DNA from: a virus
Lineage: Duplodnaviria > Caudoviricetes
IMG/VR virus record: IMGVR_UViG_3300034095_001474
Location: 64,001 to 128,000 of that record
Reading direction: 5' to 3' (one strand)
Length of the DNA stretch: 64,000 nt
The notes beneath the pieces were generated by a model, which made no database searches, was not told the origin of the DNA, and saw nothing but the letters and a program-made list of their open reading frames with translations. Below, one piece after another: positions 5,136 through 55,336 of the stretch. The position numbers and the translations under genes were made by a program. Within the stretch, counting starts at the first letter, position 1. Every line of letters begins with the position of its first letter.

Positions 5136-6183
5136 TTTCTTTATTTAATATATTAAAAATCTCGTCATTACTATGTTTAGCTGTCAATGATTTAACAAAA
5201 AACACTCTATCTGTTGTCATATTCTCAGTCATTTCAGCCAATTCTATGTCACCATCTAGTATATCTAATCTATTTTCATAGTTAGGACCAGTTATTTCAG
5301 TAACAAACTTCATTCTTGATGGTCTATCTTTAATAGAAGCATCGATTTTATCAATATCATTGCATGTCATGAAGAAAACTACTTGGTTATACTCATTATA
5401 AACACCATCCAACACACTCAATAATGAATCAAACGTGAATTTAACCTCATTGTTCTTCATTATACACTCTCTTTTATTGAAATAGTTATCGAAATCCTCA
5501 AACAATACAATACATTTCTCTGGAATATCATTAAACATCACTAGTATGTCCAAGTTATTATACTCTGGGTTCAAGAATATAGAGTATATAGGTAGATTAT
5601 ACTTCAAAGAGAAGTATTTTACTAGCCTAGTCTTACCAGTACCTGGTTTTCCATATAGCAGTGCACTTGTTTTACCTTTGCCAGTACCCAATATGTTTAC
5701 TATATCTTCTTCTATATGCTCATATTGGTCCTTGTTTATATATACCTTGGGTTTTTCACTAGTAGAAAGTTGTCCTAGCTTATCAGAACCCCATGGTGCC
5801 AATGCCATTACGTTTACATATTCTTTGGCATTTACTATATTACCAATGAAAGACTTTATTCTTTCACGATGCCATCTGAAATAATACAACTCAGATATAG
5901 TTTCTTTTGATTGCCAACCAGCGGTAAGTAATCTTTCACTTCTAGTAAAATAAACTATAGTACCATTAAGCATAGCAAATGAAGAGTAAGTTGATGGATA
6001 CTTTTTATTCACACTTATTTCATTATTAATCTCAAACTTATACTTCGCATTAATTATAGCTGGAATCAAACTCTTGCTCAAGTTATCATCCAATCTCATA
6101 CTTTGCGATATAATATACTTTAGAAAAGCCCATATTGACACTAGCAATCCACCAATAATTCCAATTAAACTCCAAACTCCCAT
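5116..6183 (-). CDS. membrane-anchored AAA+ ATPase
   Basis: N-terminal TM, Walker A GKPGTGKT, Walker B VLFEDFD, RPSR arginine finger. Confidence 0.88.
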   Translation of the reverse strand: MGVWSLIGIIGGLLVSIWAFLKYIISQSMRLDDNLSKSLIPAIINAKYKFEINNEISVNKKYPSTYSSFAMLNGTIVYFTRSERLLTAGWQSKETISELYYFRWHRERIKSFIGNIVNAKEYVNVMALAPWGSDKLGQLSTSEKPKVYINKDQYEHIEEDIVNILGTGKGKTSALLYGKPGTGKTRLVKYFSLKYNLPIYSIFLNPEYNNLDILVMFNDIPEKCIVLFEDFDNYFNKRECIMKNNEVKFTFDSLLSVLDGVYNEYNQVVFFMTCNDIDKIDASIKDRPSRMKFVTEITGPNYENRLDILDGDIELAEMTENMTTDRVFFVKSLTAKHSNDEIFNILNKENEIIEG

Positions 6184-11790: not shown

Positions 11791-13746
11791 TTACAAACTA
11801 ATTAAACTCAAATTTATGTTCTTTTTCTCTATATCAACTGACGAAATAACTACATGTACCACGTCACCTAAACGTATGATATTCCCAGTGTTATGACCTT
11901 TTACTCTGTAGTTTTCAGCATCAGCAACATATGTATCACCAATGATTTCACTCAACCTTACAAGACCATCACAACCATTATCTTCCATAGTAATAAACAA
12001 ACCGTAATCAGTTACACTAGTAACCATACCCTTGAATATTTTACCCACCTTATCAGACATATAGATACATTGCATGTATTTGATACTATCTCTCTCAGCT
12101 TTTTGTGCTTTCTTCTCTCTTTCAGACAAGTGACCACACTTAGCATCTAGTTTTGCTATGTTAGGCAAAGATTTAGATGTACCATCTAAGTACATACCTA
12201 ACAATCTATGTACGATTACATCTGGATAACGTCTGATTGGACTAGTAAAGTGAGCATAGTTCTTGAACCCTAACCCATAGTGACCAATATTTTTGGTCAT
12301 GTAGTTAGCTTTTTGCATTGTACGTACAACCAAGTTGCTAATCATATCCTCTTCAGCGGTACCTCTAACATCCATTAGTAGTTTATTCAACGTACTTGTT
12401 GTTTCTTCTGGTGTACTTATCTTGATATCATAACCAAATTGTATTATAAAGTCTTTAAGTTGTTCTAACTTTTCTTCGTTAGGTTTCTCGTGTGCTCTGT
12501 TTACCATTGGAAACTGACGACTATTAACATATTGTGCAACATGTTTGTTTGCTAGCAGCATGTATTCCTCAATAAGTTTGTTAGAATCTTTACCAACCTT
12601 GAATATAATATCAACTGGTTTGTTATTTTTATCCAATTTGAACTTGATTTCATGTTTGTCGAATGATAAAGAACCTTTTTGTAAACGTACCTTACGCATT
12701 TTCTTAGCAATCTTATCAAGTGTTTTGATTGGTTGATGAAAAGGATATGCATATGCAACCTCTTCATGTGTTGATGTTGCTAGATATGGTATACCTAACA
12801 CATTTCCATGTTCTATTATGTTCTGTGCTTCTTCATATGTAAATCTCATATCAGAATTGATAACAGTTCTACCGAACCACTCATCCAACACATGACCATT
12901 GTGGTCAATTTTAAACACCACTGAGAAGCAAAGTTTATCTTCGTTAGGTCTTAGTGAACAAAGTCCGTTAGATAAGTTCTCTGGAAGCATAGGTACACAT
13001 CTATCTACAAGATAAACACTAGTTCCTCTACCATAAGCTTCTCTATCCAATTCTGTTTCTGGACGCAAATAATGTGATACATCAGCAATGTGAACACCAA
13101 CAAACAACTCACCGTTTACCCATTCAACACTCAGAGCATCATCGAAGTCTTTTGCATCATGTGGGTCAATAGTAAATGTAAGCACATTACGCATATCTCT
13201 ACGTTTTTCTATTTCTTCTTGAGTTATTTCAGTTGAGATTGCATCAGCTTCTGCGATTACATCTTCTGGGAAATCATATGGTAATCCATATTCTTCAAGG
13301 ATACTATGTATCTCTGTTTCGTGTTCACCAGCATCACCTATGATTCTAACTATTTTACCGTTAGGGTTCTTTGCGTTATCTTTCCAATCAGCCAATTGTG
13401 CAACAACCTTTTGTCCATGAGTTGCACCATTTAATTTATTCAAAGGAATAAAGAAATCGATTGCTAATTTGTTTGAGTCTGGGATAAAGAATGCAAACTT
13501 CTCGCTAATCTCAATTGTACCAACAAATTCTGTTCTGAATCGTTCGATTATCTCAATAACTTTACCTTCGATTGACCTTCCTTGTCCAGCAATTACCTCA
13601 ATTCTAACTGTGTCTAAATGTAACGCTTTGTTCGTTTTAGACTTATGTAAATAAATATCTTTTGGTAAGTCTACGCTAACCAAATATGCTGAACCACTTG
13701 CGTTCATACTTATTTTACCTTCTAATATGTCTCCTATTTTAATCAT
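11791..13746 (-). CDS. rnr: ribonuclease R
   Basis: TIDPHDAKDFDDA, HIADVSHY, HFTSPIRRYPD, C-terminal S1 domain. Confidence 0.95.
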   Translation of the reverse strand: MIKIGDILEGKISMNASGSAYLVSVDLPKDIYLHKSKTNKALHLDTVRIEVIAGQGRSIEGKVIEIIERFRTEFVGTIEISEKFAFFIPDSNKLAIDFFIPLNKLNGATHGQKVVAQLADWKDNAKNPNGKIVRIIGDAGEHETEIHSILEEYGLPYDFPEDVIAEADAISTEITQEEIEKRRDMRNVLTFTIDPHDAKDFDDALSVEWVNGELFVGVHIADVSHYLRPETELDREAYGRGTSVYLVDRCVPMLPENLSNGLCSLRPNEDKLCFSVVFKIDHNGHVLDEWFGRTVINSDMRFTYEEAQNIIEHGNVLGIPYLATSTHEEVAYAYPFHQPIKTLDKIAKKMRKVRLQKGSLSFDKHEIKFKLDKNNKPVDIIFKVGKDSNKLIEEYMLLANKHVAQYVNSRQFPMVNRAHEKPNEEKLEQLKDFIIQFGYDIKISTPEETTSTLNKLLMDVRGTAEEDMISNLVVRTMQKANYMTKNIGHYGLGFKNYAHFTSPIRRYPDVIVHRLLGMYLDGTSKSLPNIAKLDAKCGHLSEREKKAQKAERDSIKYMQCIYMSDKVGKIFKGMVTSVTDYGLFITMEDNGCDGLVRLSEIIGDTYVADAENYRVKGHNTGNIIRLGDVVHVVISSVDIEKKNINLSLISL

Positions 13747-30554: not shown

Positions 30555-31006
30555 GGTACGTATTGAACAATCGTTACATACTCACCAATCATTTCATCCT
30601 CAATGATTTTCTCAATGATATCCCAATCACCACCAGCCAAACCAGCACCAATCATTGGCAATCCAAATGTTTTACCAGAGAACTTTTCTTTCATTTCTTT
30701 CAAACCAGAACGCAAAGCATCATAGTCTAAATCCATATTACCACTACGTCTACCTTTGGTATCGTATTGTGAATAAATGTTTACAATTGTTGGTTTACTG
30801 TAAACAGTATGAGAAATAGTCCCCATCTTTGATTCATCACCAGCAACTGTCTCACAGTCAGCTTCAAATGCTTCTGGAAACGCATTTTTAATTTGTGGTG
30901 CGATACCAGCACCCATAGCACAGAAACAGTTACAACCATGTGCTATTACATCGAATTTCCCTTCTTTGGCCATTTTCACTAAATCGCCTTCTACATATCT
31001 AATCAT
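30551..31006 (-). CDS. macro domain (ADP-ribose binding/hydrolase) protein
   Basis: HGCNCFCAMGAGIA, PMIGAGLAGGDW. Confidence 0.9.
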   Translation of the reverse strand: MIRYVEGDLVKMAKEGKFDVIAHGCNCFCAMGAGIAPQIKNAFPEAFEADCETVAGDESKMGTISHTVYSKPTIVNIYSQYDTKGRRSGNMDLDYDALRSGLKEMKEKFSGKTFGLPMIGAGLAGGDWDIIEKIIEDEMIGEYVTIVQYVP

Positions 31007-32622
31007 TATACTAATTGTTTATTTAATGTTATTATTCTTGCTCTATAACGTATATCTTCAAATGGTGTTTCAGTTAATAGTTTACCATTTTCAAAAACTG
31101 TTCTTAATTCATCACGTGATTCAACATACGTATCTTCCAATGATGTCACAGTGTAGTATTTACCAGTTGTATAGTGTTTAACCAATTTCAAACGACCTTG
31201 TTTAGATTTTTTGAATGATGGTTTCAAATCTCCATTCTCATCAACCTCTGTTGGTGATTTAACCAAATCACGGTGTTCACCATTTACTACTGCGAAACAT
31301 GCTTTTGTTGCAAAGTTTTGTGTATCTCTGTTGATATCAGCTTGTAACAATTTACCACCCATACCAAACACAATGTTTTCAGCAGAAATACCCAAAGAAG
31401 TCAACTCTTCGTAAATTTCAATAATTGAATTGATGTTTACACCATCACCTTGAATTACACGTACTTGTGGAGGTAAAACTTTGAAACCTTTATCGTTTAC
31501 GGTGTAACCAAATTTGTCAAACAAGATTGCAAACACTTCTTTTAATGTGTTGATAACGTGACCAGAATCTGGACGGATAACTAGTTGATTACCTGGAGTT
31601 GCTGGACGAGATAAAATCAAATCACGTAACTCAGTTCCCCATTTCTCAGAACATGCACGCAAGATATGGTAAGAGTCAGATACACACGCTACAATACCAG
31701 TAGGATATTGTTCCAACACACGTTTCATCATTTCAACTTCACCTTCTTCACCTTTCATAGTCATGATAGAGTGTTCAGTTGCTGGAACTGATTTACCAAA
31801 TACTGTGTTGGTATTGTAGTATTCACATATGCGTTTAGATGCAACAGTTGTATCAGAACCCATAAAGTTAATCAAGTGTGCTGAACCACCAATACCAGCT
31901 GATTGAACAGAAGATACACCTCTGAAACCGAAATCATTCAATACGAACTCAACAGCTACTCTCATGATATCTCCAGGCAACGAAACTGTTTTGTCGTAAT
32001 ATTCAGTAACGATTTTCTTAACTTCACGTGACAATGTTGCCACAGTGATTGGATACCACAATTGCATCATGATAGTTTCTAAGAAGTTTGTTAACCAATA
32101 ACAATTAGGGTCAGTGTTCTCAATAGTCATAAGAACGTTTTTAACACCTACAACTGTACCCTCTGGTACTGCTTTGATACGTACTGGTAATTTACCACCA
32201 TGAACATCGATAATGTATTGGAATTTAGATTTGTCAAAGACATCATCACGACCAAACACACCAAGTTCAGTACCCAAGTACTCATATGCTTCATCTAATT
32301 CTTCTTGTGTGAAGGCAACACCCTCTAAATATTCTTTGATGAACATTTCAAGACCATACCATACTGTTTCACTGAAACGACCACCACGTGATTCCATGTA
32401 TGAATAAACAGTTGTTGTGTTTTCTTCATAGAATTTGTGGTGCGAGTACTTATAAGCATCACCCATAAGTACAAGATTGTTAGGTTTATCCATTGCTTTT
32501 GAGATAAGACCTTCCAATGTTTCGATTGAAGACCAATCTTTATTTTTGATTGCCTCTGCCAATCTAGTTTTAATCACTTCTTTAAGTGCTAAACTTTTTA
32601 AATTTTTATTTTCTGATTCCAT
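31006..32622 (-). CDS. nadV: nicotinamide phosphoribosyltransferase (NAMPT)
   Basis: DAYKYSH, DFGFRG, PATEHS, VSDSY, RPDSG, IQGDG, FGMGGKLLQ. Confidence 0.93.
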   Translation of the reverse strand: MESENKNLKSLALKEVIKTRLAEAIKNKDWSSIETLEGLISKAMDKPNNLVLMGDAYKYSHHKFYEENTTTVYSYMESRGGRFSETVWYGLEMFIKEYLEGVAFTQEELDEAYEYLGTELGVFGRDDVFDKSKFQYIIDVHGGKLPVRIKAVPEGTVVGVKNVLMTIENTDPNCYWLTNFLETIMMQLWYPITVATLSREVKKIVTEYYDKTVSLPGDIMRVAVEFVLNDFGFRGVSSVQSAGIGGSAHLINFMGSDTTVASKRICEYYNTNTVFGKSVPATEHSIMTMKGEEGEVEMMKRVLEQYPTGIVACVSDSYHILRACSEKWGTELRDLILSRPATPGNQLVIRPDSGHVINTLKEVFAILFDKFGYTVNDKGFKVLPPQVRVIQGDGVNINSIIEIYEELTSLGISAENIVFGMGGKLLQADINRDTQNFATKACFAVVNGEHRDLVKSPTEVDENGDLKPSFKKSKQGRLKLVKHYTTGKYYTVTSLEDTYVESRDELRTVFENGKLLTETPFEDIRYRARIITLNKQLV

Positions 32623-41183: not shown

Positions 41184-41258
41184 AATAACTTTTACTATAA
41201 ATATGTACAAAATTATAAAAGTTCAAATGTCTGAACATGGCAATATAATGAACACTAG

Positions 41259-41331
41259 TGTACCCGAAGAGATTCGAACTCTTGACCCCTCCGTTAAAAG
41301 CGGAGTGCTCTACCAACTAAGCTACGAGTAC
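41259..41331 (-). tRNA. tRNA-Lys(UUU)
   Basis: cloverleaf; ASL CTCCG-CTTTTAA-CGGAG. Confidence 0.92.
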
Positions 41332-41337
41332 ATATAG

Positions 41338-41411
41338 TCTCCCCGATTGGGCTCGAACCAATGACTCTCGCATTAAAAGTGCGATACTCTAGCCAACTGA
41401 GTTACGAGGAG
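41338..41411 (-). tRNA. tRNA-Lys(UUU)
   Basis: cloverleaf; ASL TCGCA-CTTTTAA-TGCGA. Confidence 0.92.
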
Positions 41412-41456
41412 ATATTATTTTTCCAATAACACTCGTAACCATTATGGCCGAGTGCC

Positions 41457-41498
41457 TTATTCCTTTTTCTTTCGCTTGATGTTGATAAGTGTTTTCAT
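41457..41498 (-). promoter_or_regulatory. Lys-rich leader ORF MKTLINIKRKKKE
   Basis: mini-ORF plus hairpin directly upstream of two tRNA-Lys. Confidence 0.55.
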
Positions 41499-41637
41499 AA
41501 TTTAATAGTTTTTAATTTTTTTATAATAACGTCAGTAGGACTTAAAGGGAACCACTCATTTCTATCCCTTCATCAAACGGTAATTATCCGTTATTTGGCG
41601 TAATCCATACATTGCTGCACGTGTATCCTACTTATTG

Positions 41638-41709
41638 AGCGAGAAATGGGATTCGAACCCACGACCCTCTGGTTGGTAACCAGATGCTCTACCACTGAGC
41701 TATTCTCGC
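41638..41709 (-). tRNA. tRNA-Gly(ACC)
   Basis: G1C2G3/C70G71C72, U73; ASL TCTGG-TTACCAA-CCAGA. Confidence 0.88.
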
Positions 41710-41713
41710 ATTG

Positions 41714-41786
41714 AGCTAAAAATCAGAATCGAACTGATAACCTCTTCATTACTAGTGAAGTGCTCTACCAATTGAGCTATTTCAGC
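41714..41786 (-). tRNA. tRNA-Thr(AGU)
   Basis: ASL CTTCA-CTAGTAA-TGAAG. Confidence 0.88.
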
Positions 41787-41845
41787 ATTGAGTGTGGTAG
41801 GTCAGCTGAACCTTGAGGCACCCACACTAGTTATCCCTCTTTTTG

Positions 41846-41916
41846 TGCAGAATGAGGGAGTCAAACCCTCGCCTCGGACTTGGAAGGCCCATGTGCTTTC
41901 GTAACACCTATTCTGC
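41846..41916 (-). tRNA. tRNA-Gly(UCC)
   Basis: ASL TGGGC-CTTCCAA-GTCCG. Confidence 0.8.
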
Positions 41917-42008
41917 AAATTTCGAAGAAAGACAGTCACGGCCACCGCTGGAAATTCTTCTAATGTTAAAGTTTTGGCAAAATGTGGCTCGACCCAAATT
42001 AACACTTG

Positions 42009-42081
42009 AGCCTCAGATGGGACTCGAACCCATAACCTACTGATTACAAATCAGTTGCACAGCCAATCGTGCTCCAGAGGC
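42009..42081 (-). tRNA. tRNA-Thr(UGU)
   Basis: ASL ACTGA-TTTGTAA-TCAGT. Confidence 0.88.
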
Positions 42082-42153
42082 AAATTGATTTTTATTATCC
42101 CCTTGAACTATGTCAAGTACATGGTTAAAAATCTAAATTCTACCTTAACTAAG

Positions 42154-42235
42154 TGAGGCTAGTAGGAATCGAACCTACTCAGCTTACGCAACAGATTTAC
42201 AGTCTGCCCCAGCTCTCCAACTCTGGCGTATCCCC
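42154..42235 (-). tRNA. tRNA-Tyr(GUA)
   Basis: ASL GCAGA-CTGTAAA-TCTGT; long variable arm. Confidence 0.88.
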
Positions 42236-42306
42236 AAATAACAGAATGGCATGTTGATTTTCAAATCCAAATTGAAGCTTTTTAATTTGCTGCAACCATT
42301 CTTTAG

Positions 42307-42380
42307 ATGTCCGAGAGGGCTTCGAACCCCCAGATTCTCCCTTCAAAGGGGAGTGACTTTGCCAGTTTGTCTATCGGACA
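42307..42380 (-). tRNA. tRNA-Gln(UUG)
   Basis: U1-A72; ASL CTCCC-CTTTGAA-GGGAG. Confidence 0.85.
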
Positions 42381-42437
42381 ATAATCTAATTCTACGCTCC
42401 GTTGCACACGGTCTATGAATTAGTAACAATCTGACAG

Positions 42438-42511
42438 TCGAATAAGCTGGATTCGAACCAGCGTGCTCGGCATTCCAAATGCCGCTAGATAAACCGCTCC
42501 TATACTACTCG
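42438..42511 (-). tRNA. tRNA-Pro(UGG)
   Basis: C1-G72, A73; ASL CGGCA-TTTGGAA-TGCCG. Confidence 0.85.
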
Positions 42512-42554
42512 TTAAAGTACGTTCCTATGAGTGTACGTACAACTGACCTCAAAA

Positions 42555-43208
42555 TTATTTCCTACCTTTTAACCATCCTTTATTAAGATAGGTATCTATT
42601 TCTTCTTTTTTAATTTTTTTGTTGGTACCATCTTTGGTTATCCAACATGTACCAAATTGTGAATTATTTTCACCACTTCCTTTACCTTTCATTACACTTT
42701 TAAGTAACTTTTTTGTTTCCTCAGAATGTTTCTTATTTTTAAAGTTACCTTCATTAGTCTCAAAATACTTTTTTTGAGACTTACTCATTTTATCTTTATA
42801 CTCTGGTGTTTCTTTTGCTTTAGCTATATTTAACATTCTTTGTTCTTTAGTGTTATTGAAATTGTTAATACCAGCTTCAGTGAAAACTTTTTTATGACTT
42901 TCAGACCAAATACGACCACCACCAGAACCACCCTCTTTTAAATTCATACAATTATTATCATTAATCATATCTGCGGTAATCGCTTTTATTTCAGCTTCAA
43001 TCAATAATTCTCTATTATCAAAGAACTCTAATATCTCTTTAACATGGTTTTTTTTACCATGTTTCCTTATACTATATCTTAATCTCTTTCCACTACCCAT
43101 ATAACCATCATACATGTTACATGTTGAGTGCATACCTATATAATATCTATTTGTCACCAAACAAGTAGTCTTATATAAGTAATGTATGTGCTTTTCTTTC
43201 CTTGCCAT
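42555..43208 (-). CDS. GIY-YIG (Seg-like) homing endonuclease with NUMOD3-type tail
   Basis: YLYKTT..YYIGMH..YMGSG..KEIL; KKHSEETKK. Confidence 0.88.
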   Translation of the reverse strand: MARKEKHIHYLYKTTCLVTNRYYIGMHSTCNMYDGYMGSGKRLRYSIRKHGKKNHVKEILEFFDNRELLIEAEIKAITADMINDNNCMNLKEGGSGGGRIWSESHKKVFTEAGINNFNNTKEQRMLNIAKAKETPEYKDKMSKSQKKYFETNEGNFKNKKHSEETKKLLKSVMKGKGSGENNSQFGTCWITKDGTNKKIKKEEIDTYLNKGWLKGRK

Positions 43209-43255
43209 ATATTCTTTTTATATAAATATACTGCAAGGTACAAAAAAGTCAAGTG

Positions 43256-43328
43256 TCTAAATAGCTGGACTCGAACCAGCGGTCTCTGCGTCCCAAACGC
43301 AGCGGAATACCAACTTTCCCATATCTAG
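43256..43328 (-). tRNA. tRNA-Pro(UGG)
   Basis: C1-G72, A73; ASL CTGCG-TTTGGGA-CGCAG. Confidence 0.88.
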
Positions 43329-43423
43329 ATAATTTACATTCCTACTCTTGTATATGTACAACCCAAAATAAACCAATATGTCAAATAACTTTCCTAACTT
43401 GTAAAATGGTGTAGGTACCAAAT

Positions 43424-43457
43424 AAAAAAACCCGAAGTCATTTCTGAAATCGGGTTT
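43424..43457 (-). terminator. attenuator terminator of cassette A
   Basis: AAACCCGA/TCGGGTTT followed by U tract. Confidence 0.8.
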
Positions 43458-43481
43458 GGAATATCTTGTAATTAAGAAACT

Positions 43482-43577
43482 TTATTCTTCATTACTCAAC
43501 AGATATAACACACCCGATACACTCGGCTTTCCGCCTTGCGTTTGTTTCGGTTGATATGTGATAAATGTTGTTTTCAT
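43482..43577 (-). promoter_or_regulatory. leader peptide A: MKTTFITYQPKQTQGGKPSVSGVLYLLSNEE
   Basis: 31-aa ORF between promoter and terminator; ATCGGGT complements ACCCGAT of the terminator. Confidence 0.75.
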
Positions 43578-43649
43578 AATTTCTCTTTTTTTTAAATGGG
43601 TTTTTAGCCCGTTGTTTTAATAAATATAACCTTCTTTCTAAAAGTTATA

Positions 43650-43681
43650 CAAATGTACGAACTTTATTTTGATTTGTCAAG
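43650..43681 (-). promoter_or_regulatory. promoter of cassette A
   Basis: CTTG-N20-TACATTTG. Confidence 0.7.
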
Positions 43682-45929: not shown

Positions 45930-46763
45930 TTATGATTTCAATAATAATTCTTTGATTTCTGTTACAACTTGTCTATGACCGTTGCCATAAGGTTCCCAAG
46001 CCAATCCCATTGCTTTCAAGTCATAATGCTTAACAATAGTACTAACAGTTTCACCTTCTGGAAATCCAACGATATAGATACTATCAGCCAATTCCACTGC
46101 CAAACGAATATCGTGTGTTGAGAATATGATTGTGTTGTATTCATCTGCTGACAATATACGACCAAATGATTCTTTTACTTTCTCAATATTTCCAACATCC
46201 AATCCAGAGAATGGTTCATCCAAAATCATGAAATGCTTAGAAGTAAGCATTTGTTCAATGATTGCAGTTCTTTGTCGTTGACCACCAGATAATTCACCAG
46301 AGTATTTATCTTTGTGTTCCATCAAACCCCAATCTGTTAAGTACTCTTTGATAAGAGCTTCTTTCTCTGGTTTTGTAAGTGTGCTTTTACGCAATGCGTA
46401 TTGGCAAATTTGATAGACAGTCTTATGTCTAAAGATTGTGTACTTTTGGTCAACAAAACCAATATCACCTTCAGCTACTTGCTTAGCATCTGATTTGTCT
46501 TCTGTTTTGAAGTCAGTGATAAGTACTTGACCACTTGTTGGTAACAATAACCCAGTCAATGCTTTGAATAGCGTAGACTTTCCACGACCAGAACGACCAA
46601 TGAATGCTATTGTTTGACCAGTAGACTCATGTCCATCTCTAATGATGTCTTTCTCTACGATTGTAACGTCTTTAAGGATTTGTTTATCCTTTCCGTTTTT
46701 GTCTTTATACCCTACTGATAATTTATCAACGTAAAGTATCGTTTCTTCTGCTCTATAACTCAT
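45930..46763 (-). CDS. ABC transporter ATP-binding protein
   Basis: GRSGRGKST, LSGGQRQR, ILDEPF, THD. Confidence 0.93.
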   Translation of the reverse strand: MSYRAEETILYVDKLSVGYKDKNGKDKQILKDVTIVEKDIIRDGHESTGQTIAFIGRSGRGKSTLFKALTGLLLPTSGQVLITDFKTEDKSDAKQVAEGDIGFVDQKYTIFRHKTVYQICQYALRKSTLTKPEKEALIKEYLTDWGLMEHKDKYSGELSGGQRQRTAIIEQMLTSKHFMILDEPFSGLDVGNIEKVKESFGRILSADEYNTIIFSTHDIRLAVELADSIYIVGFPEGETVSTIVKHYDLKAMGLAWEPYGNGHRQVVTEIKELLLKS

Positions 46764-47046
46764 TTTTTAATATTTTAATTTCAATAATCGTACCTATCAA
46801 ATTGAGTGTGCCAATAAATAATGGAAACACCCAATAATCGTTTTTTAAAGATATTATACAAATACCTAAAATTATACCTCTTAATATACCTTTTACATAG
46901 TTAATCATGATTAACAGTTTTTTCTAATTTAACAATCTTTTTTTCTAGAACCACATTCTTATCTCTTTCTTTATGGAAAGCAACACAATAGGCGATTGAT
47001 ATCATTACCGCAGTAATCAAAGGGAATACTAATTTATTTTCCATGA

Positions 47047-47817
47047 TTAATAGTTTGAATATCTGAATATTAACTTTCTTAATTTTGTTAGAATGAAATC
47101 TAACGACAACCCTACTATGATGATTACGATTTGAACAGCAACTACTTTTCCGTTATCACCAATCTTATCACCATTTTTGATTAAAACGCCTAACCCACCA
47201 GCAGCAATAAGGATACTCTCAATACTTACAAGCATCATCCATACAATCGCTAAGTTTTGTCTAACCAATTCAAATACGTAATCAAAACGACCTTTGATTA
47301 CCACTTCCCAAAGGATTTCCCATCTATTGCAGCCTAGTGTTCTAGCATGGTCGAATTCTTCTTCTGGAATGTCTTTAATCATTTGCATAAGACTCGTTAT
47401 AAGGAATGTTGTCATAAACATTACCAACACCCATACTTGAATAGTTCTTGCATCGTTTACTAGAATAGTAATGTAGAATGCAATACCAGTAAGTGGCAAA
47501 TATCTAAGTTTAGATATAAACGTACCCAATGATTTAAAGACTGGAATAGCTGTCAAATAAGCAAAGAACAAAGAGATTATAACTGAATATAACACTGCTT
47601 GTGCACAAAGCCCTATAGAGCTTCCTAAATGCACCATAAGTCCTTCTGACCATAATGAACCCATACCGTGCAACACTTGTGCTGGAGTTGGGAATAAATG
47701 TGTTGTTCCAACACTACATGCAACCCAAAAAAGGATAATTGCGATTAACCAACCACTTTGAATGAAACCTTTTTTAATTCCAGTTATTGTTTCAAATGGT
47801 GTAAATAATTTTTTCAT
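47047..47817 (-). CDS. ABC transporter permease (NitT/TauT-like)
   Basis: FPTPAQV, RYLPL, EAA-like loop HARTLG, GGLG. Confidence 0.88.
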   Translation of the reverse strand: MKKLFTPFETITGIKKGFIQSGWLIAIILFWVACSVGTTHLFPTPAQVLHGMGSLWSEGLMVHLGSSIGLCAQAVLYSVIISLFFAYLTAIPVFKSLGTFISKLRYLPLTGIAFYITILVNDARTIQVWVLVMFMTTFLITSLMQMIKDIPEEEFDHARTLGCNRWEILWEVVIKGRFDYVFELVRQNLAIVWMMLVSIESILIAAGGLGVLIKNGDKIGDNGKVVAVQIVIIIVGLSLDFILTKLRKLIFRYSNY

Positions 47818-47882
47818 ATTTCTTTTATTTTAAATTTATAATACAAATGTACAAATTCTTTTTTAATAAACCTAATTTTAAT

Positions 47883-47913
47883 AAAAAAACCCTAATATTT
47901 CTATTAGGGTTTT
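47883..47913. terminator. intrinsic terminator
   Basis: AAAACCCTAATA/TATTAGGGTTTT. Confidence 0.65.
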
Positions 47914-47932
47914 GAATTATATATATCGGTTG

Positions 47933-49777
47933 TTATTTTAACAATGTGATATCAACACGTCTGTTTGCCGCTTTACCACTTGCTGTTGCGTTGCTACCTA
48001 TTGGGTTAGCATCACCTTTACCAGTTACGATTTGGAAACGTTGTGAAGAAATACCTCGACTAGTTAAGTAATTAGCTACAGATTGAGCACGTCCTTGTGA
48101 AAGTGATACGTTAGAACTATGATTACCTACGTTGTCAGTATAACCGATTATGTTTAATTTAGCATCTTCAGCTTGAACAAGTAAGTTATAGATTGTTTCC
48201 AAGTCTCTTTCAGAACCTTCAATCGTTGCACTACCAGTAGCGAAGTTGATATTCCAATGACCAGAAGCCATAACTGTTGTTTTTGTTGCTGCATAGCTAA
48301 TCGCCTCAGTTTTACCAGCATATAAACCATCTTTGATAGAAGATAAGAAGTATAAGTTAACTGCATCTTCGTAAGCAACAACACCACTAGGACAAGATTC
48401 ATTGAAACCACATGGGTTCAAGTCAGTCAAGTATGCAGAGATTTGATTGTATACTGCTTTGTAACGATTTTTGTTATCACCACCCAAACCAAAGTATTGT
48501 TCAGCATCAGCATAGTTAAATACTCGTGTACCACCTACGTTGTAATCCAATCCAGCTTTTGTACCTTTTTGTCCTTTGAACATGTTGTACCAGTAGTCAG
48601 CGTTTTCAAAGTCATAAGTTGTAGCAACACATTCAGCAGCCTTACGAGCCCATTTGTCATATAACTTGATTTGGTTACAAGCAACGTATGTTTGTTTCAA
48701 GATTGCTTTAACTTCTTTCTCATGTAACAAAGCCCATTCTTTTACTACGATGATTGATGTTGCCATTTGGTTAACAAAGTCTTTTGTAGATACAACATCA
48801 GTAAAGCCAGTCAAAGCATCGAAAGCCATCTTATCTCCAGGTGTCCACGTTGTAGCACCATCAATTTTGTGGTCAACAGTTTTACCAGTCAATTTACCAT
48901 CAATTACTTCTTTCAAAGGTACAGTATATCCCATGTTTTGAGATTTGATAAGTTCTTTTACAGAGTTGATATAGTCATCATCTTGAGAAGGTACAAAGTT
49001 GATTGCGTTAGCATCATAAGTTGTTGGGTCTGGATTTACTGGAATCTTGTTAGCAGATGCATAGTTTACAGCAACTACCCAGTCACCATCGCCAATTACT
49101 GATGATATTACAGCACCTCTAAGAGTTTGTGGGTTATCTTTCCAAATTTTTGGTCCGATTAATTTATCTTCTCCACATGATAATCCGATAGCACCGATGT
49201 TTTGTACGTGGTATTTACCTTTACCAAACTTGCTATCCAACGATTGTTGTGTAGTTGTTATGTAGAAAGGAACACCATCACCCATGATAGATACAGCAAA
49301 TGCTGATTTATCAGATTTAGGATAGTCAACACCTTTTGAAAATTCTTCTACAAACTTAACTTGCATATCACGTAAACCACCAACCATGTCTTGACGAACG
49401 ATTTCTAAGTTTACACCAGCAGCTTCCATTAGAGACCCACTAGTTGTACGAGGACCACCATTTGCTACAATCATACCAGAGTTACCATTCCATGCATACT
49501 CAGCGATTCTAATTAATCCGTTTCCAGATACTACACTAGATGCTGTTGTTGTCGGCAAAGGTAGTAAATCACCTTTAGTAACGTTGTTTAACTCGTCTGT
49601 ATCGATATCTAAACTAGATAACTCTTTAGACACTGCTACTCTCAATCCAGGGGCAGCCACATAGACAATACCTAAAACGATTGCTAACCCTAAACCCATA
49701 ATAAGGGCTTTACTTAATTTAGTTAAACGAGCCCATTTTGCTGTTAAACCACTTTGTGTTCCATTTACATTTTCCAT
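47933..49777 (-). CDS. substrate-binding protein fused to OmpA peptidoglycan-binding domain
   Basis: N-terminal TM; C-terminal GYTDNVG..LSQGRA..NRRVDI. Confidence 0.85.
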   Translation of the reverse strand: MENVNGTQSGLTAKWARLTKLSKALIMGLGLAIVLGIVYVAAPGLRVAVSKELSSLDIDTDELNNVTKGDLLPLPTTTASSVVSGNGLIRIAEYAWNGNSGMIVANGGPRTTSGSLMEAAGVNLEIVRQDMVGGLRDMQVKFVEEFSKGVDYPKSDKSAFAVSIMGDGVPFYITTTQQSLDSKFGKGKYHVQNIGAIGLSCGEDKLIGPKIWKDNPQTLRGAVISSVIGDGDWVVAVNYASANKIPVNPDPTTYDANAINFVPSQDDDYINSVKELIKSQNMGYTVPLKEVIDGKLTGKTVDHKIDGATTWTPGDKMAFDALTGFTDVVSTKDFVNQMATSIIVVKEWALLHEKEVKAILKQTYVACNQIKLYDKWARKAAECVATTYDFENADYWYNMFKGQKGTKAGLDYNVGGTRVFNYADAEQYFGLGGDNKNRYKAVYNQISAYLTDLNPCGFNESCPSGVVAYEDAVNLYFLSSIKDGLYAGKTEAISYAATKTTVMASGHWNINFATGSATIEGSERDLETIYNLLVQAEDAKLNIIGYTDNVGNHSSNVSLSQGRAQSVANYLTSRGISSQRFQIVTGKGDANPIGSNATASGKAANRRVDITLLK

Positions 49778-52709: not shown

Positions 52710-52808
52710 TTTTCTTTTAATTTAATTGTTAATAATAAACTTTTAACAAAGGTACAAAACTTATTTCGATAAAACAAATATATTCGTAAATATTTTTAAA
52801 TTTTTTTG

Positions 52809-52879
52809 AAATTCATACTGGGCTCGAACCAGTGTCTGATGGCTTATCGCCCTCCGTGGTGCCACTCCACTAATGAATC
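52809..52879 (-). ncRNA. tRNA-like RNA with degenerate anticodon loop (Ile GAT-like)
   Basis: intact acceptor, D and T arms; ASL GAGGG-CGATAAG-CCATC lacks U33. Confidence 0.55.
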
Positions 52880-53750: not shown

Positions 53751-53787
53751 ATGCTCTGTTTAGGTCAGAGGAACCTTCAATGTGGGG

Positions 53788-53915
53788 ACAAGATTAACTT
53801 TTTTTCATACGTGCTCTACCACTGAGCTACCGACCTCTGCGAGACCAGGTGGGATTCGAACCCACGACCACGGCATTAACAAGGCTTGAATTTTTGGTTG
53901 CTGAAATAATCTTTT
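53788..53915 (-). tRNA. candidate circularly permuted tRNA-Asn(GUU)
   Basis: 3' half (53841 to ~53885) precedes 5' half (53810-53836); acceptor AGGTCGG/CTGGTCT. Confidence 0.55.
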
Positions 53916-54844: not shown

Positions 54845-54938
54845 TGGAGAGATGTGGATTCGAACCACACTTTGGACGGATATTAAGTTATATCTTTCAA
54901 TAACACCACCCTTACTTTACCAATCAAGCTATCTCTCC
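54845..54938 (-). ncRNA. tRNA-like RNA with elongated anticodon arm
   Basis: GGAGAGA/TCTCTCC acceptor, D and T arms, ~20 extra nt in the anticodon arm. Confidence 0.55.
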
Positions 54939-55211: not shown

Positions 55212-55336
55212 TCGGAAGGGAAGGAATCGAACCTCCAAATAGCAGTCCCTAATAGTAGTTTTATGCTGAACATAATCTTTAAACAGATTAACTTTTTTTT
55301 ACATACTGCCGCCTTTACCAATTTGGCCACCTTCCG
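55212..55336 (-). tRNA. tRNA with ~51-nt anticodon-loop insertion (identity uncertain)
   Basis: CGGAAGG/CCTTCCG, GCAGT/ACTGC stem, insert with AATCT/AGATT hairpin. Confidence 0.6.

What the first reader, a model, noticed from the sequence alone, without database searches (positions are those of the whole stretch)
43424..43681. Attenuator cassette A (Thr/Tyr/Gln/Pro/Lys/Gly sensor)
Codons 3-18 (TTFITYQPKQTQGGKP) consist of T, Y, Q, P, K and G except F5 and I6, covering all six amino acids of the array. The antiterminator segment ATCGGGT (codons 20-22) pairs 7/7 with ACCCGAT in the terminator arm. A ribosome reaching the stop would mask it; one stalled earlier would free it. An upstream ACCGA offers a 1:2 pairing.
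Basis: partly seen in the sequence, partly recalled or inferred. Interest (0 to 1): 0.85.

Follow-up and report, generated by a model that had tools for sequence, protein, structure and literature searches.

The report
Leader-peptide attenuator gating phage tRNA genes
An uncultured large lake-water phage places a 31-codon test gene, written almost only in the six amino acids whose tRNAs lie behind it, in front of a switchable transcription stop, so it probably transcribes that tRNA block only when ribosomes read those codons slowly; I found no published case of this control for tRNA genes.

Summary
On the minus strand lie a Bacteroidota-type promoter (43680-43650), a 31-codon ORF (43577-43482), a hairpin with a U-run (43457-43424), then tRNA-Pro and an array for Pro, Gln, Tyr, Thr, Gly and Lys.

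- Composition: codons 7-18 are 12/12 array amino acids (p about 1e-6; 0/2000 random peptides). A relative at 39% neighbour-gene identity has 23/23.
- Translation: the ORF is open in nine homologues, with pN/pS of 0.16-0.35.
- Antiterminator: the best partner of the terminator's 5' arm is always codons 20-25. This segment covaries with the arm (AUCGGGU/ACCCGAU, CGGGC/GCCCG, GACUGGGU/ACCCAGUC).
- Switch: three mutually exclusive helices (1:2, 2:3, 3:4) are each 84-90% paired across homologues and show compensatory changes.
- Ribosome position: folding with a ribosome mask lets the antiterminator form for A-site codons up to 17 and abolishes it for 18-28. That boundary is where the matched codons end.
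- Rival promoter: the promoter-like remnant after the terminator is lost in relatives, where the U-run nearly abuts the first tRNA.

I read this as a ribosome-mediated attenuator, a new variant of a known kind (confidence about 0.75). There are no expression data. This scan has already noted the same design elsewhere in this genome and in other giant phages.

The parts
43650..43680 (-). Promoter: TTG, 20 nt, TACATTTG (Bacteroidota-type -33/-7 layout)
   Evidence: The motif TTG-N20-TAnnTTTG occurs 26 times in the window against 2.5 expected, and 23 of the 26 are on the coding strand. It belongs to a 13-copy repeat family. The extended form is shared with cassettes B and C.
43578..43642 (-). 5' untranslated leader (start point inferred), with a small hairpin GGGCUAAAAACCC at 43610-43598 and an A-rich run before the ATG
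   Evidence: Repeat D2/D15 is shared with cassettes B and C. The hairpin is replaced by a different small hairpin in L002 and L020. The transcription start is inferred, not shown.
43482..43577 (-). Leader ORF, 31 codons plus stop (MKTTFITYQPKQTQGGKPSVSGVLYLLSNEE)
   Evidence: The ORF is open in nine homologues (28-33 codons). pN/pS is 0.16-0.35 in alignable pairs, and L017 versus L023 shows 4 synonymous and 0 non-synonymous changes.
43524..43574 (-). Sensor codons 2-18, rich in Thr, Tyr, Gln, Pro, Lys and Gly
   Evidence: Best window p=9.5e-7, with 0/2000 random peptides matching it. Position 6 is Thr in L002, L007 and L020. L022 has 23/23 array amino acids.
43547..43570 (-). Segment 1: 5' strand of the 1:2 hairpin (includes ACCGA)
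   Evidence: Minimum-free-energy fold. Across nine homologues 84.1% of cells are paired, against 20-52% when partners are slid. Three pairs changed on both sides. The covariation score is reached by 1/500 shuffles.
43519..43541 (-). Apical hairpin ACGC..GGC GGAAA GCC..GUGU inside the ORF
   Evidence: 95% of cells paired, 2 pairs with compensatory change, 0/500 shuffles.
43502..43518 (-). Segment 2: AUCGGGU..UAUAUC, which pairs either with segment 1 or with segment 3
   Evidence: It is the best partner of the terminator 5' arm in all seven lineages tested, always at codons 20-25. Covariation is shown.
43468..43495 (-). Spacer hairpin enclosing the stop codon
   Evidence: Its outer stem GUAAU/AUUAC becomes AUAGU/ACUAU in L020. 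In the near-identical L002 and L007 copies the fold keeps a shorter stem.
43449..43465 (-). Segment 3: GAUAUU..ACCCGAU, partner of segment 2 and also the 5' arm of the terminator
   Evidence: 2:3 helix: 84.4% of cells paired, against 14-51% when slid, with 3 pairs changed on both sides.
43424..43457 (-). Intrinsic terminator: AAACCCGA / UCGGGUUU stem with an inner 3-bp stem, then seven U
   Evidence: -13.5 kcal/mol. 89.8% of cells paired, 4 pairs with compensatory change, 0/500 shuffles. A stem plus U-run is present in all nine homologues.
43352..43384 (-). Promoter-like remnant (TTGACA, 19 nt to GTACATATA, that is 23 nt from TTG to TA)
   Evidence: It does not match the promoter motif. The -7-like part is absent in L017 and L020, and the whole spacer is absent in L022 and L019.
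41258..43328 (-). Regulated tRNA array: Pro, [GIY-YIG gene insert], Pro, Gln, Tyr, Thr, Gly, Thr, Gly, [mini-ORF], Lys, Lys
   Evidence: The same order occurs without the insert in L002. Similar arrays occur in L017, L020, L022 and L024.

Best explanation
Cassette A is a ribosome-mediated (leader-peptide) transcription attenuator that gates a phage tRNA array.

Proposed mechanism:
1. Transcription starts at the promoter at 43680-43650.
2. A ribosome translates the 31-codon leader while RNA polymerase moves on toward the terminator.
3. If Thr, Tyr, Gln, Pro, Lys and Gly codons are decoded quickly, the ribosome reaches codons 18-28 or the stop by the time the terminator region is made. Segment 2 (AUCGGGU..UAUAUC) is then covered or held apart, the hairpin at 43457-43428 forms, and the transcript ends at the U-run.
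4. If decoding is slow because the matching charged tRNAs are scarce, the ribosome lags within codons 2-17. This melts the 1:2 hairpin and leaves segment 2 free. Segment 2 pairs with the terminator's 5' arm, and polymerase reads on into the tRNA genes.
5. The products then speed decoding, which gives negative feedback.

Shown here: the anatomy, the composition match, codon-level selection, and conservation with covariation of the three alternative helices.

Inferred, not shown: the start site, translation, transcription-translation coupling in the host, and the actual response to tRNA supply.
For: 1. Architecture. The promoter belongs to a class present 26 times against 2.5 expected. It is followed by the ORF, a hairpin with a U-run, and then tRNAs.

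2. Composition.
- The leader is enriched only for its own array's amino acids (17/30, p=4e-3; best window 12/12, p=9.5e-7; 0/2000 random peptides). It is not enriched for the sets of arrays B or C (p>0.5).
- Paralogous cassettes B and C show the same own-set-only enrichment.
- A tRNA that ARAGORN missed in array B has the anticodon GUC, so it is Asp, matching the D residues of leader B.

3. Relatives fetched through the neighbouring UVR-motif gene.
- Leaders change by substitutions and in-frame indels but keep or purify the composition. L017 has TYQPKQYTQGGKP (13/13), L019 has 21/24, and L022 has 23/23 (p=3e-12).
- L021 lacks both the array and the leader at this position.

4. Translation. pN/pS is 0.16-0.35.

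5. Switch.
- The best partner of the terminator 5' arm is always codons 20-25, with p from 0.002 to 0.16 per lineage.
- Compensatory changes: U-A to C-G in L023, C-G to U-A in L019 and L022 by the alignment, and A-U to G-C between L019 and L022.
- Pairing across homologues: 1:2 84.1%, 2:3 84.4%, 3:4 89.8%. With slid partners the range is 14-57%.

6. Ribosome-mask folding.
- Full length: the terminator probability is 1.0 with no ribosome, at the stop and at codons 15-31. It falls to 0.18-0.35 at codons 4-6 and 12. No shuffle in 200 is switch-like.
- Before the 3' arm is made: the 5' arm is paired to segment 2 for A-site codons up to 17 and about 0 for 18-28 in all nine homologues. In L017 and L024 this pairing needs a stalled ribosome.

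7. No conserved promoter lies between the terminator and the first tRNA in relatives.
Against: - There are no expression, start-site or read-through data. No RNA run could be laid on the region.
- At equilibrium on full-length RNA the terminator wins whatever the ribosome position in L023, L024 and L019, and nearly so in L017. The switch there must be kinetic.
- In 7 of 9 truncated transcripts the antiterminator forms even without a ribosome. Termination without translation would therefore depend on 1:2 forming first.
- The window keeps a conserved promoter-like remnant at 43384-43352, which could add unregulated transcription.
- Cassette B has a full promoter between its terminator and tRNA-Phe, conserved in relatives.
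- L019's leader keeps T, K and G, although only Pro, Gln and a weak Tyr tRNA follow within 4.5 kb.
- K2 and T3 are shared by all cassettes, so they are not specific to this array.
- Four of the nine homologues are nearly identical to the window, and the structures were derived from the window sequence. Both facts inflate the paired percentages.
- Whether the presumed Bacteroidota host couples transcription and translation tightly enough is unknown to me.
Confidence: 0.75

Rival explanations
1. It is an ordinary small phage gene, a moron-like or PeSL-like unit of promoter, short ORF and stem-loop, with a leaky terminator. The tRNAs are made by constitutive read-through or from the weak downstream promoter. 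The amino-acid match is coincidence or reflects a peptide function.
For: - Promoter, small ORF and terminator form a self-contained unit.
- The ORF is under purifying selection, as a functional peptide would be.
- Cassette B's array has its own promoter.
- A promoter-like remnant follows terminator A.
Against: - Own-set-only enrichment occurs in three cassettes, and in cassette A's relatives it reaches 23/23.
- Indels and substitutions change the peptide sequence but keep its composition.
- Segment 2 covaries with the terminator arm, and two mutually exclusive helices are conserved.
- The stall-permissive zone ends where the matched codons end.
- The leader is absent where the array is absent (L021).
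Confidence: 0.1
2. Translation of the leader matters, but the output is not intrinsic termination. Ribosome position could instead control RNA processing or stability of the tRNA precursor, or Rho access, with the hairpin serving as a processing or protective element.
For: - The composition match and codon selection hold equally under this reading.
- In cassette C the U-run ends 3 nt before tRNA-Cys, close to the tRNA's 5' end where RNase P would cut (the RNase P site is from general knowledge).
- Several homologues show no equilibrium switch.
Against: - The hairpin plus a run of 6-8 U is a canonical intrinsic terminator in all nine homologues.
- The conserved competitor of its 5' arm is what an antiterminator looks like.
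Confidence: 0.1
3. It is an untranslated RNA switch or small RNA, for example a T-box-like element that binds tRNA directly or a stable sRNA ending at the terminator. The ORF would be incidental.
For: - The region folds much better than shuffles (z=-4.2).
- The terminated product would be a discrete RNA of about 220 nt.
Against: - No Rfam family reaches its threshold. The best hits are SdsR at 24 bits and Trp_leader at 18.7 bits, and there is no T-box hit.
- The ORF is kept open through in-frame indels in nine homologues.
- Synonymous changes are favoured (pN/pS 0.16-0.35; 4 synonymous and 0 non-synonymous between L017 and L023).
- An amino-acid composition signal has no meaning for an untranslated RNA.
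Confidence: 0.03

Closest known systems
Multivalent leader-peptide attenuators of enterobacterial amino-acid operons (ilvGMEDA leader with Ile/Leu/Val codons; thr leader with Thr/Ile codons) and the single-amino-acid trpL, hisL, leuL and pheL leaders (from established knowledge)
   Same: A promoter-proximal short ORF carries clustered regulatory codons. There is a 1:2 / 2:3 / 3:4 set of alternative helices with 3:4 as an intrinsic terminator. Ribosome position selects the fold. One leader senses several amino acids.
   Different: - The regulated genes are tRNA genes, not biosynthetic enzymes, so the sensed quantity and the product are the same class of molecule (direct feedback).
- Six amino acids are sensed.
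- It is encoded by a phage with Bacteroidota-type promoters.
- There is no sequence similarity; the Rfam Trp_leader hit is far below threshold.
pheM leader attenuator of the pheST (phenylalanyl-tRNA synthetase) operon of E. coli (from established knowledge)
   Same: Leader-peptide attenuation is applied to a component of the decoding machinery and responds to the level of charged tRNA.
   Different: It controls a synthetase rather than tRNA genes, senses one amino acid, and is cellular rather than viral.
T-box riboswitches of Gram-positive bacteria (from established knowledge)
   Same: They couple tRNA status to a terminator/antiterminator choice upstream of translation-related genes.
   Different: T-boxes bind uncharged tRNA directly and need no translation. 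Here there is a selected ORF and no T-box motif.
Promoter / small ORF / stem-loop cassettes of large phages (morons; PeSL elements of T4-type phages) (from memory, not checked in a paper here)
   Same: Repeated promoter-bearing cassettes each hold a very short ORF ending in a stem-loop, dispersed in a large phage genome.
   Different: Those cassettes are not reported to match downstream tRNA content or to carry a conserved competitor of the terminator arm.

Membership tests
Ribosome-mediated (leader-peptide) transcription attenuator | A short translated ORF lies between the promoter and the regulated genes | tested here: met
   The 31-codon ORF starts about 65 nt after the promoter. It is open in nine homologues with pN/pS of 0.16-0.35. 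Translation itself is inferred.
Ribosome-mediated (leader-peptide) transcription attenuator | Regulatory codons cognate to the regulated function are clustered in the ORF | tested here: met
   Codons 7-18 are 12/12 array amino acids (p=9.5e-7), and relatives reach 23/23. Enrichment is for the cassette's own set only.
Ribosome-mediated (leader-peptide) transcription attenuator | An intrinsic terminator lies between the leader ORF and the regulated genes | tested here: met
   An 8-bp GC-cored stem plus seven U. It is conserved with 4 compensatory pairs.
Ribosome-mediated (leader-peptide) transcription attenuator | An antiterminator is mutually exclusive with the terminator, and its formation depends on where the ribosome sits | tested here: met
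   In silico only. The 2:3 helix is conserved and covaries. It forms for A-site codons up to 17 and is lost at 18-28. An equilibrium switch appears in 5 of 9 homologues.
Ribosome-mediated (leader-peptide) transcription attenuator | An upstream 1:2 hairpin sequesters the antiterminator strand when no ribosome is stalled | tested here: met
   84.1% of cells paired, 3 compensatory pairs, 1/500 shuffles. It is weaker in L019 and L022, and at equilibrium 2:3 beats it in truncated RNA.
Ribosome-mediated (leader-peptide) transcription attenuator | No independent promoter lies between the terminator and the regulated genes | tested here: inconclusive
   The window has a degenerate promoter-like remnant with wrong spacing and no TTTG. 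Relatives lack its -7-like box or have only 19-25 nt of spacer.
Ribosome-mediated (leader-peptide) transcription attenuator | The regulated genes are amino-acid biosynthesis or synthetase genes (all described members) | tested here: not met
   The downstream genes are tRNAs. For this reason I file it as a new variant and not a plain new member.
Ribosome-mediated (leader-peptide) transcription attenuator | Read-through rises when the cognate charged tRNA is limiting | not testable with these tools
   This needs reporter or Term-seq experiments. No RNA run could be laid.
T-box riboswitch | A T-box sequence and specifier-loop architecture recognised by the Rfam model | tested here: not met
   No T-box hit even at E up to 10.
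Rfam Trp_leader (RF00513) and other curated leader families | A score at or above the family's gathering threshold | tested here: not met
   Trp_leader scores 18.7 bits against 41 needed (E=0.37). No other leader family scores higher.

The most novel reading that the evidence does not exclude
Phage tRNA genes are under ribosome-mediated attenuation. The phage splits its tRNA repertoire into blocks, each behind its own codon-matched leader, so that each block is transcribed on demand when decoding of its codons slows. Slowing could come from mismatch with the host tRNA pool, host shut-off, or tRNA-cleaving host defences. This would be the first tRNA-pool homeostat of this kind, and the first case in which the attenuator's product is the molecule it senses.
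Probability: 0.7. Interest if true: 0.9.

Novelty: new variant of a known kind. Interest (0 to 1): 0.85.

Why it matters
- Leader-peptide attenuation is textbook for amino-acid operons. I found no report of it for tRNA genes in four full-text searches.
- If real, large phages measure decoding speed codon family by codon family and top up their own tRNAs only where needed. That bears on the long-standing question of why phages carry tRNAs and how those tRNAs are regulated.
- It also gives a natural, compact, multi-input sensor of tRNA availability that can be tested directly with reporters.
- It predicts that tRNA-depleting host defences would induce the matching phage tRNA block.
- Practically, it is an annotation rule: tiny ORFs upstream of phage tRNA arrays are regulatory leaders, not hypothetical proteins.

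Tried and rejected
- Rfam at gathering and at E-value thresholds gave nothing but tRNAs. SdsR and Trp_leader matches were far below threshold.
- The window's whole genome is not held.
- Neighbour-protein scans of viral contigs with single proteins found nothing. DNA-pattern scans found only close relatives. A pattern taken from a divergent loose end found nothing in viral contigs; that variant later turned up as L022.
- GenBank phages hold no DNA or protein match to the cassette or to its neighbour gene, and only tRNA-level matches to the region.
- Expression: no RNA holder was listed for the 1.2-kb stretch. Two runs marked RNA or guessed to be RNA held small shares of the 461-nt stretch, but I could not lay them because the single laying call had been used on DNA contigs. 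This is not evidence either way.
- The DNA contigs I laid showed only L002-like variants plus one divergent loose end.
- My first pair count used a structure string offset by one column. I discarded it and repeated the count correctly.
- Full-length equilibrium folding does not work as a universal test. It shows no switch for cassette C or for L023, L024 and L019, so I also used truncated-transcript folding.
- L021 was examined for a leader upstream of its odd tRNA-like region. Nothing comparable was seen.
- One look-up (P0035) returned genes but no DNA.

Full report
**What is there**

The window is AT-rich, and essentially all long ORFs lie on the minus strand. ARAGORN and Rfam each list 21 tRNAs, with partly different sets. 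Other genes include GIY-YIG-like and HNH-like ORFs, an RNase II/R-family protein and NAMPT. No cultured phage in GenBank matches the cassette or its neighbour gene. Relatives come from lake metagenomes, and one lies on a 222,577-bp contig.

Read on the minus strand, the flagged stretch contains in order:
- a promoter, TTG-N20-TACATTTG, at 43680-43650;
- an untranslated leader of about 65 nt;
- a 31-codon ORF at 43577-43482;
- a spacer hairpin that encloses the stop codon;
- a hairpin, AAACCCGA/UCGGGUUU, followed by seven U (43457-43424);
- a 95-nt spacer;
- tRNA-Pro at 43328, followed by the array Pro, Gln, Tyr, Thr, Gly, Thr, Gly, Lys, Lys down to 41258.

The promoter motif occurs 26 times in the window against 2.5 expected by chance. 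Of these, 23 are on the coding strand. I therefore take it to be a real promoter class. Its -33/-7 layout is that described for Bacteroidota (from my own knowledge).

**The observation**

Two refinements are given under the observation check.

Against the phage's own amino-acid frequencies (69 ORFs, 15,492 residues), the set {P,Q,Y,T,G,K} has frequency 0.315. The leader has 17/30 such residues (p=4e-3). Its best window, TYQPKQTQGGKP, is 12/12 (p=9.5e-7). None of 2000 random peptides gave as good a best window.

The 7-nt complement is not an isolated match. The duplex of the terminator's 5' arm with the leader is reached by only 10 of 1000 dinucleotide shuffles.

**Paralogues in the window**

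The promoter, the 5' leader and the MKT start are repeated at 57442-57140 (cassette B) and 60930-60660 (cassette C).
- Leader B has the core FDFAFNFAAEADE and precedes tRNAs for Phe, Glu, Glu, an unlisted tRNA, and Ala.
- Before identifying the unlisted tRNA, I had noted that Asp or Asn would fit the model. Its anticodon is GUC, so it is Asp.
- Leader C (LHVLLLCLLAV...) precedes Cys, Val, Val, Leu, Leu.
- Each leader is enriched for its own array's set and for neither of the other two (own-set best-window p of about 1e-6 to 1e-7; other sets p>0.5).

**Relatives**

DNA patterns found only near-identical copies (L002, L003, L007). A protein search with the upstream UVR-motif gene gave homologues from 97% down to 35% identity. 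Fetching their contigs gave cassette-A homologues next to genes at several identity levels:

| Locus | Neighbour-gene identity |
|---|---|
| L020 | 79% |
| L019 | 64% |
| L017, L018 | 60% |
| L023 | 55% |
| L024 | 53% |
| L022 | 39% |

All keep the order promoter, 28-33-codon ORF, hairpin with U-run, tRNA-Pro.

The peptides differ by substitutions and in-frame indels, yet they keep or sharpen the composition:
- L017: ...TYQPKQYTQGGKP... (13/13).
- L019: 21 of 24.
- L022: KTTTTYQTQYQPKGGKPQGKTGY (23/23, p=3e-12).
- The two off-set residues of the window are not conserved: I6 is Thr in L002, L007 and L020, and the L019 and L022 leaders have neither F5 nor I6.

L021, whose UVR-motif gene is 61% identical, has neither the array nor the leader at this position.

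**Is the ORF read as codons?**

In alignable pairs pN/pS is 0.16-0.35. L017 and L023 differ by four synonymous and no non-synonymous changes. This fits a translated ORF and argues against a purely structural RNA.

**The switch**

With no ribosome, the minimum-free-energy fold contains a long 1:2 hairpin inside the ORF, the spacer hairpin and the terminator.

I then masked 30 nt to mimic a ribosome. Results on the full-length RNA:
- The terminator's GC pairs have probability 1.0 with no ribosome, at the stop, and at codons 15-31.
- The probability falls to 0.18-0.35 at A-site codons 4-6 and 12.
- In those states AUCGGGU..UAUAUC pairs with GAUAUU..ACCCGAU.
- None of 200 shuffles is switch-like.

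The same equilibrium switch appears in L002, L007, L020 and L022. It is weak in L017 and absent in L023, L024 and L019.

Results on transcripts cut just after the 5' arm, that is, before the 3' arm exists:
- The 5' arm is paired to segment 2 for A-site codons up to 17 in all nine homologues.
- That pairing is essentially absent for codons 18-28.
- In L017 and L024 the pairing needs a stalled ribosome.

So the permissive stall zone ends where the matched codons end.

Across lineages the best partner of the arm is always codons 20-25. Segment 2 changes together with the arm:

| Lineage | Segment 2 | 5' arm (segment 3) |
|---|---|---|
| window | AUCGGGU | ACCCGAU |
| L023 | CGGGC | GCCCG |
| L019 | AACUGGGU | ACCCAGUU |
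| L022 | GACUGGGU | ACCCAGUC |

Pair counts on the MAFFT alignment of the nine homologues:

| Helix | Cells paired | Paired when partners slid | Pairs changed on both sides | Shuffles reaching the covariation score |
|---|---|---|---|---|
| 1:2 | 84.1% | 20-52% | 3 | 1/500 |
| Apical hairpin | 95% | 13-50% | 2 | 0/500 |
| 2:3 | 84.4% | 14-51% | 3 | 22/500 |
| 3:4 | 89.8% | 17-57% | 4 | 0/500 |

Keeping two incompatible pairings for the same nucleotides is what a switch predicts. Two caveats apply. Four of the rows are nearly identical to the window. The structures were derived from the window sequence.

**The rival promoter**

The element at 43384-43352 has 23 nt rather than 20 between TTG and TA, and it reads TACATATA instead of TAnnTTTG. 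It is not among the motif matches. In L017 and L020 its -7-like part is missing. In L022 only about 19 nt separate the U-run from tRNA-Pro, and in L019 about 25 nt.

In those phages the tRNAs can hardly be transcribed except through the terminator. In the window itself a weak contribution from this remnant cannot be excluded.

**Points against the model, or still open**
- There are no RNA data.
- The switch is kinetic rather than thermodynamic in several homologues.
- The antiterminator forms without a ribosome in most truncated folds.
- Cassette B has a full promoter after its terminator.
- L019's leader keeps T, K and G although only Pro, Gln and a weak Tyr tRNA follow nearby.
- Transcription-translation coupling in the host is unknown.

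**Comparison and novelty**

The design matches the multivalent leader-peptide attenuators (the ilv and thr leaders) and, in its target class, the pheST attenuator. It differs in regulating tRNA genes, in sensing six amino acids, and in being viral. It has no sequence membership in any Rfam leader family and is not a T-box.

Four full-text searches found no report of leader-peptide attenuation of tRNA genes. The library is not exhaustive. I class it as a new variant of a known kind.

Earlier notes of this scan describe the same design at a fourth cassette of this genome and in other giant phages. Those are unchecked AI notes, and I did not use them as evidence.

Noticed in passing
window 41503-41462 (minus), with a hairpin to about 41425, just upstream of tRNA-Lys 41411 and 41331: A 13-codon mini-ORF, MKTLINIKRKKKE, is followed by a conserved hairpin (CACUCG...CGAGUG) with a poor U-run. 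It sits inside array A directly before the two tRNA-Lys genes. Five relatives keep it as M(K/R)(T/N)xINIK(R/N)KxK(E/R). It may be a nested Lys/Arg-type leader.
   Followed up: partly
window 56657-56587 (minus): ARAGORN missed this tRNA. Rfam scores it at 44.8 bits and its anticodon is GUC, so it is Asp. That completes array B as Phe, Glu, Glu, Asp, Ala.
   Followed up: yes
window 57442-57140 and 60930-60660 (minus): These are paralogous cassettes B and C. B has a full promoter copy between its terminator and tRNA-Phe. In C the U-run ends 3 nt before tRNA-Cys. C shows no equilibrium switch, but an antiterminator forms in truncated RNA.
   Followed up: partly
window 42555-43328 (minus): An extra tRNA-Pro and a GIY-YIG-like ORF with its own promoter-like sequence are inserted between the leader and the rest of array A. 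Both are absent in L002, L003 and L005, where the second tRNA-Pro follows the leader directly. A similar ORF follows tRNA-Cys in L001.
   Followed up: partly
window 41637-41709, 41713-41786 and 52808-52879 (minus): Three tRNAs have A at anticodon position 34: Gly(ACC), Thr(AGT) and Tyr(ATA). These are unusual for bacteria-type decoding.
   Followed up: no
window 55212-55336, 54845-54938 and 53787-53894 (minus): Two tRNA matches are over-long (125 and 94 nt), which suggests inserts. There is also a sub-threshold YrlA (Y RNA-like) match (41 bits against 69 needed) over tRNA-like repeats that ARAGORN does not call.
   Followed up: no
window 45930-49777 (minus); L017, L019, L020 and L022 upstream regions: A syntenic block is conserved next to the UVR-motif gene in relatives: an OmpA-domain protein (with an NMT1-type domain in L017), an ABC permease and an ABC ATPase. 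A complete ABC importer-like set is unusual cargo for a phage.
   Followed up: no
L019 5771-5825 and L020 about 5830-5885: A conserved palindromic element (CTAATTCATAG ... CATAGAATTAG) lies between the first tRNAs of the array in two relatives. Its function is unknown.
   Followed up: no
window 11791-13746 and 31006-32622 (minus): The phage encodes an RNase II/R-family exoribonuclease (RNB domain, E=2e-109) and a nicotinamide phosphoribosyltransferase.
   Followed up: no
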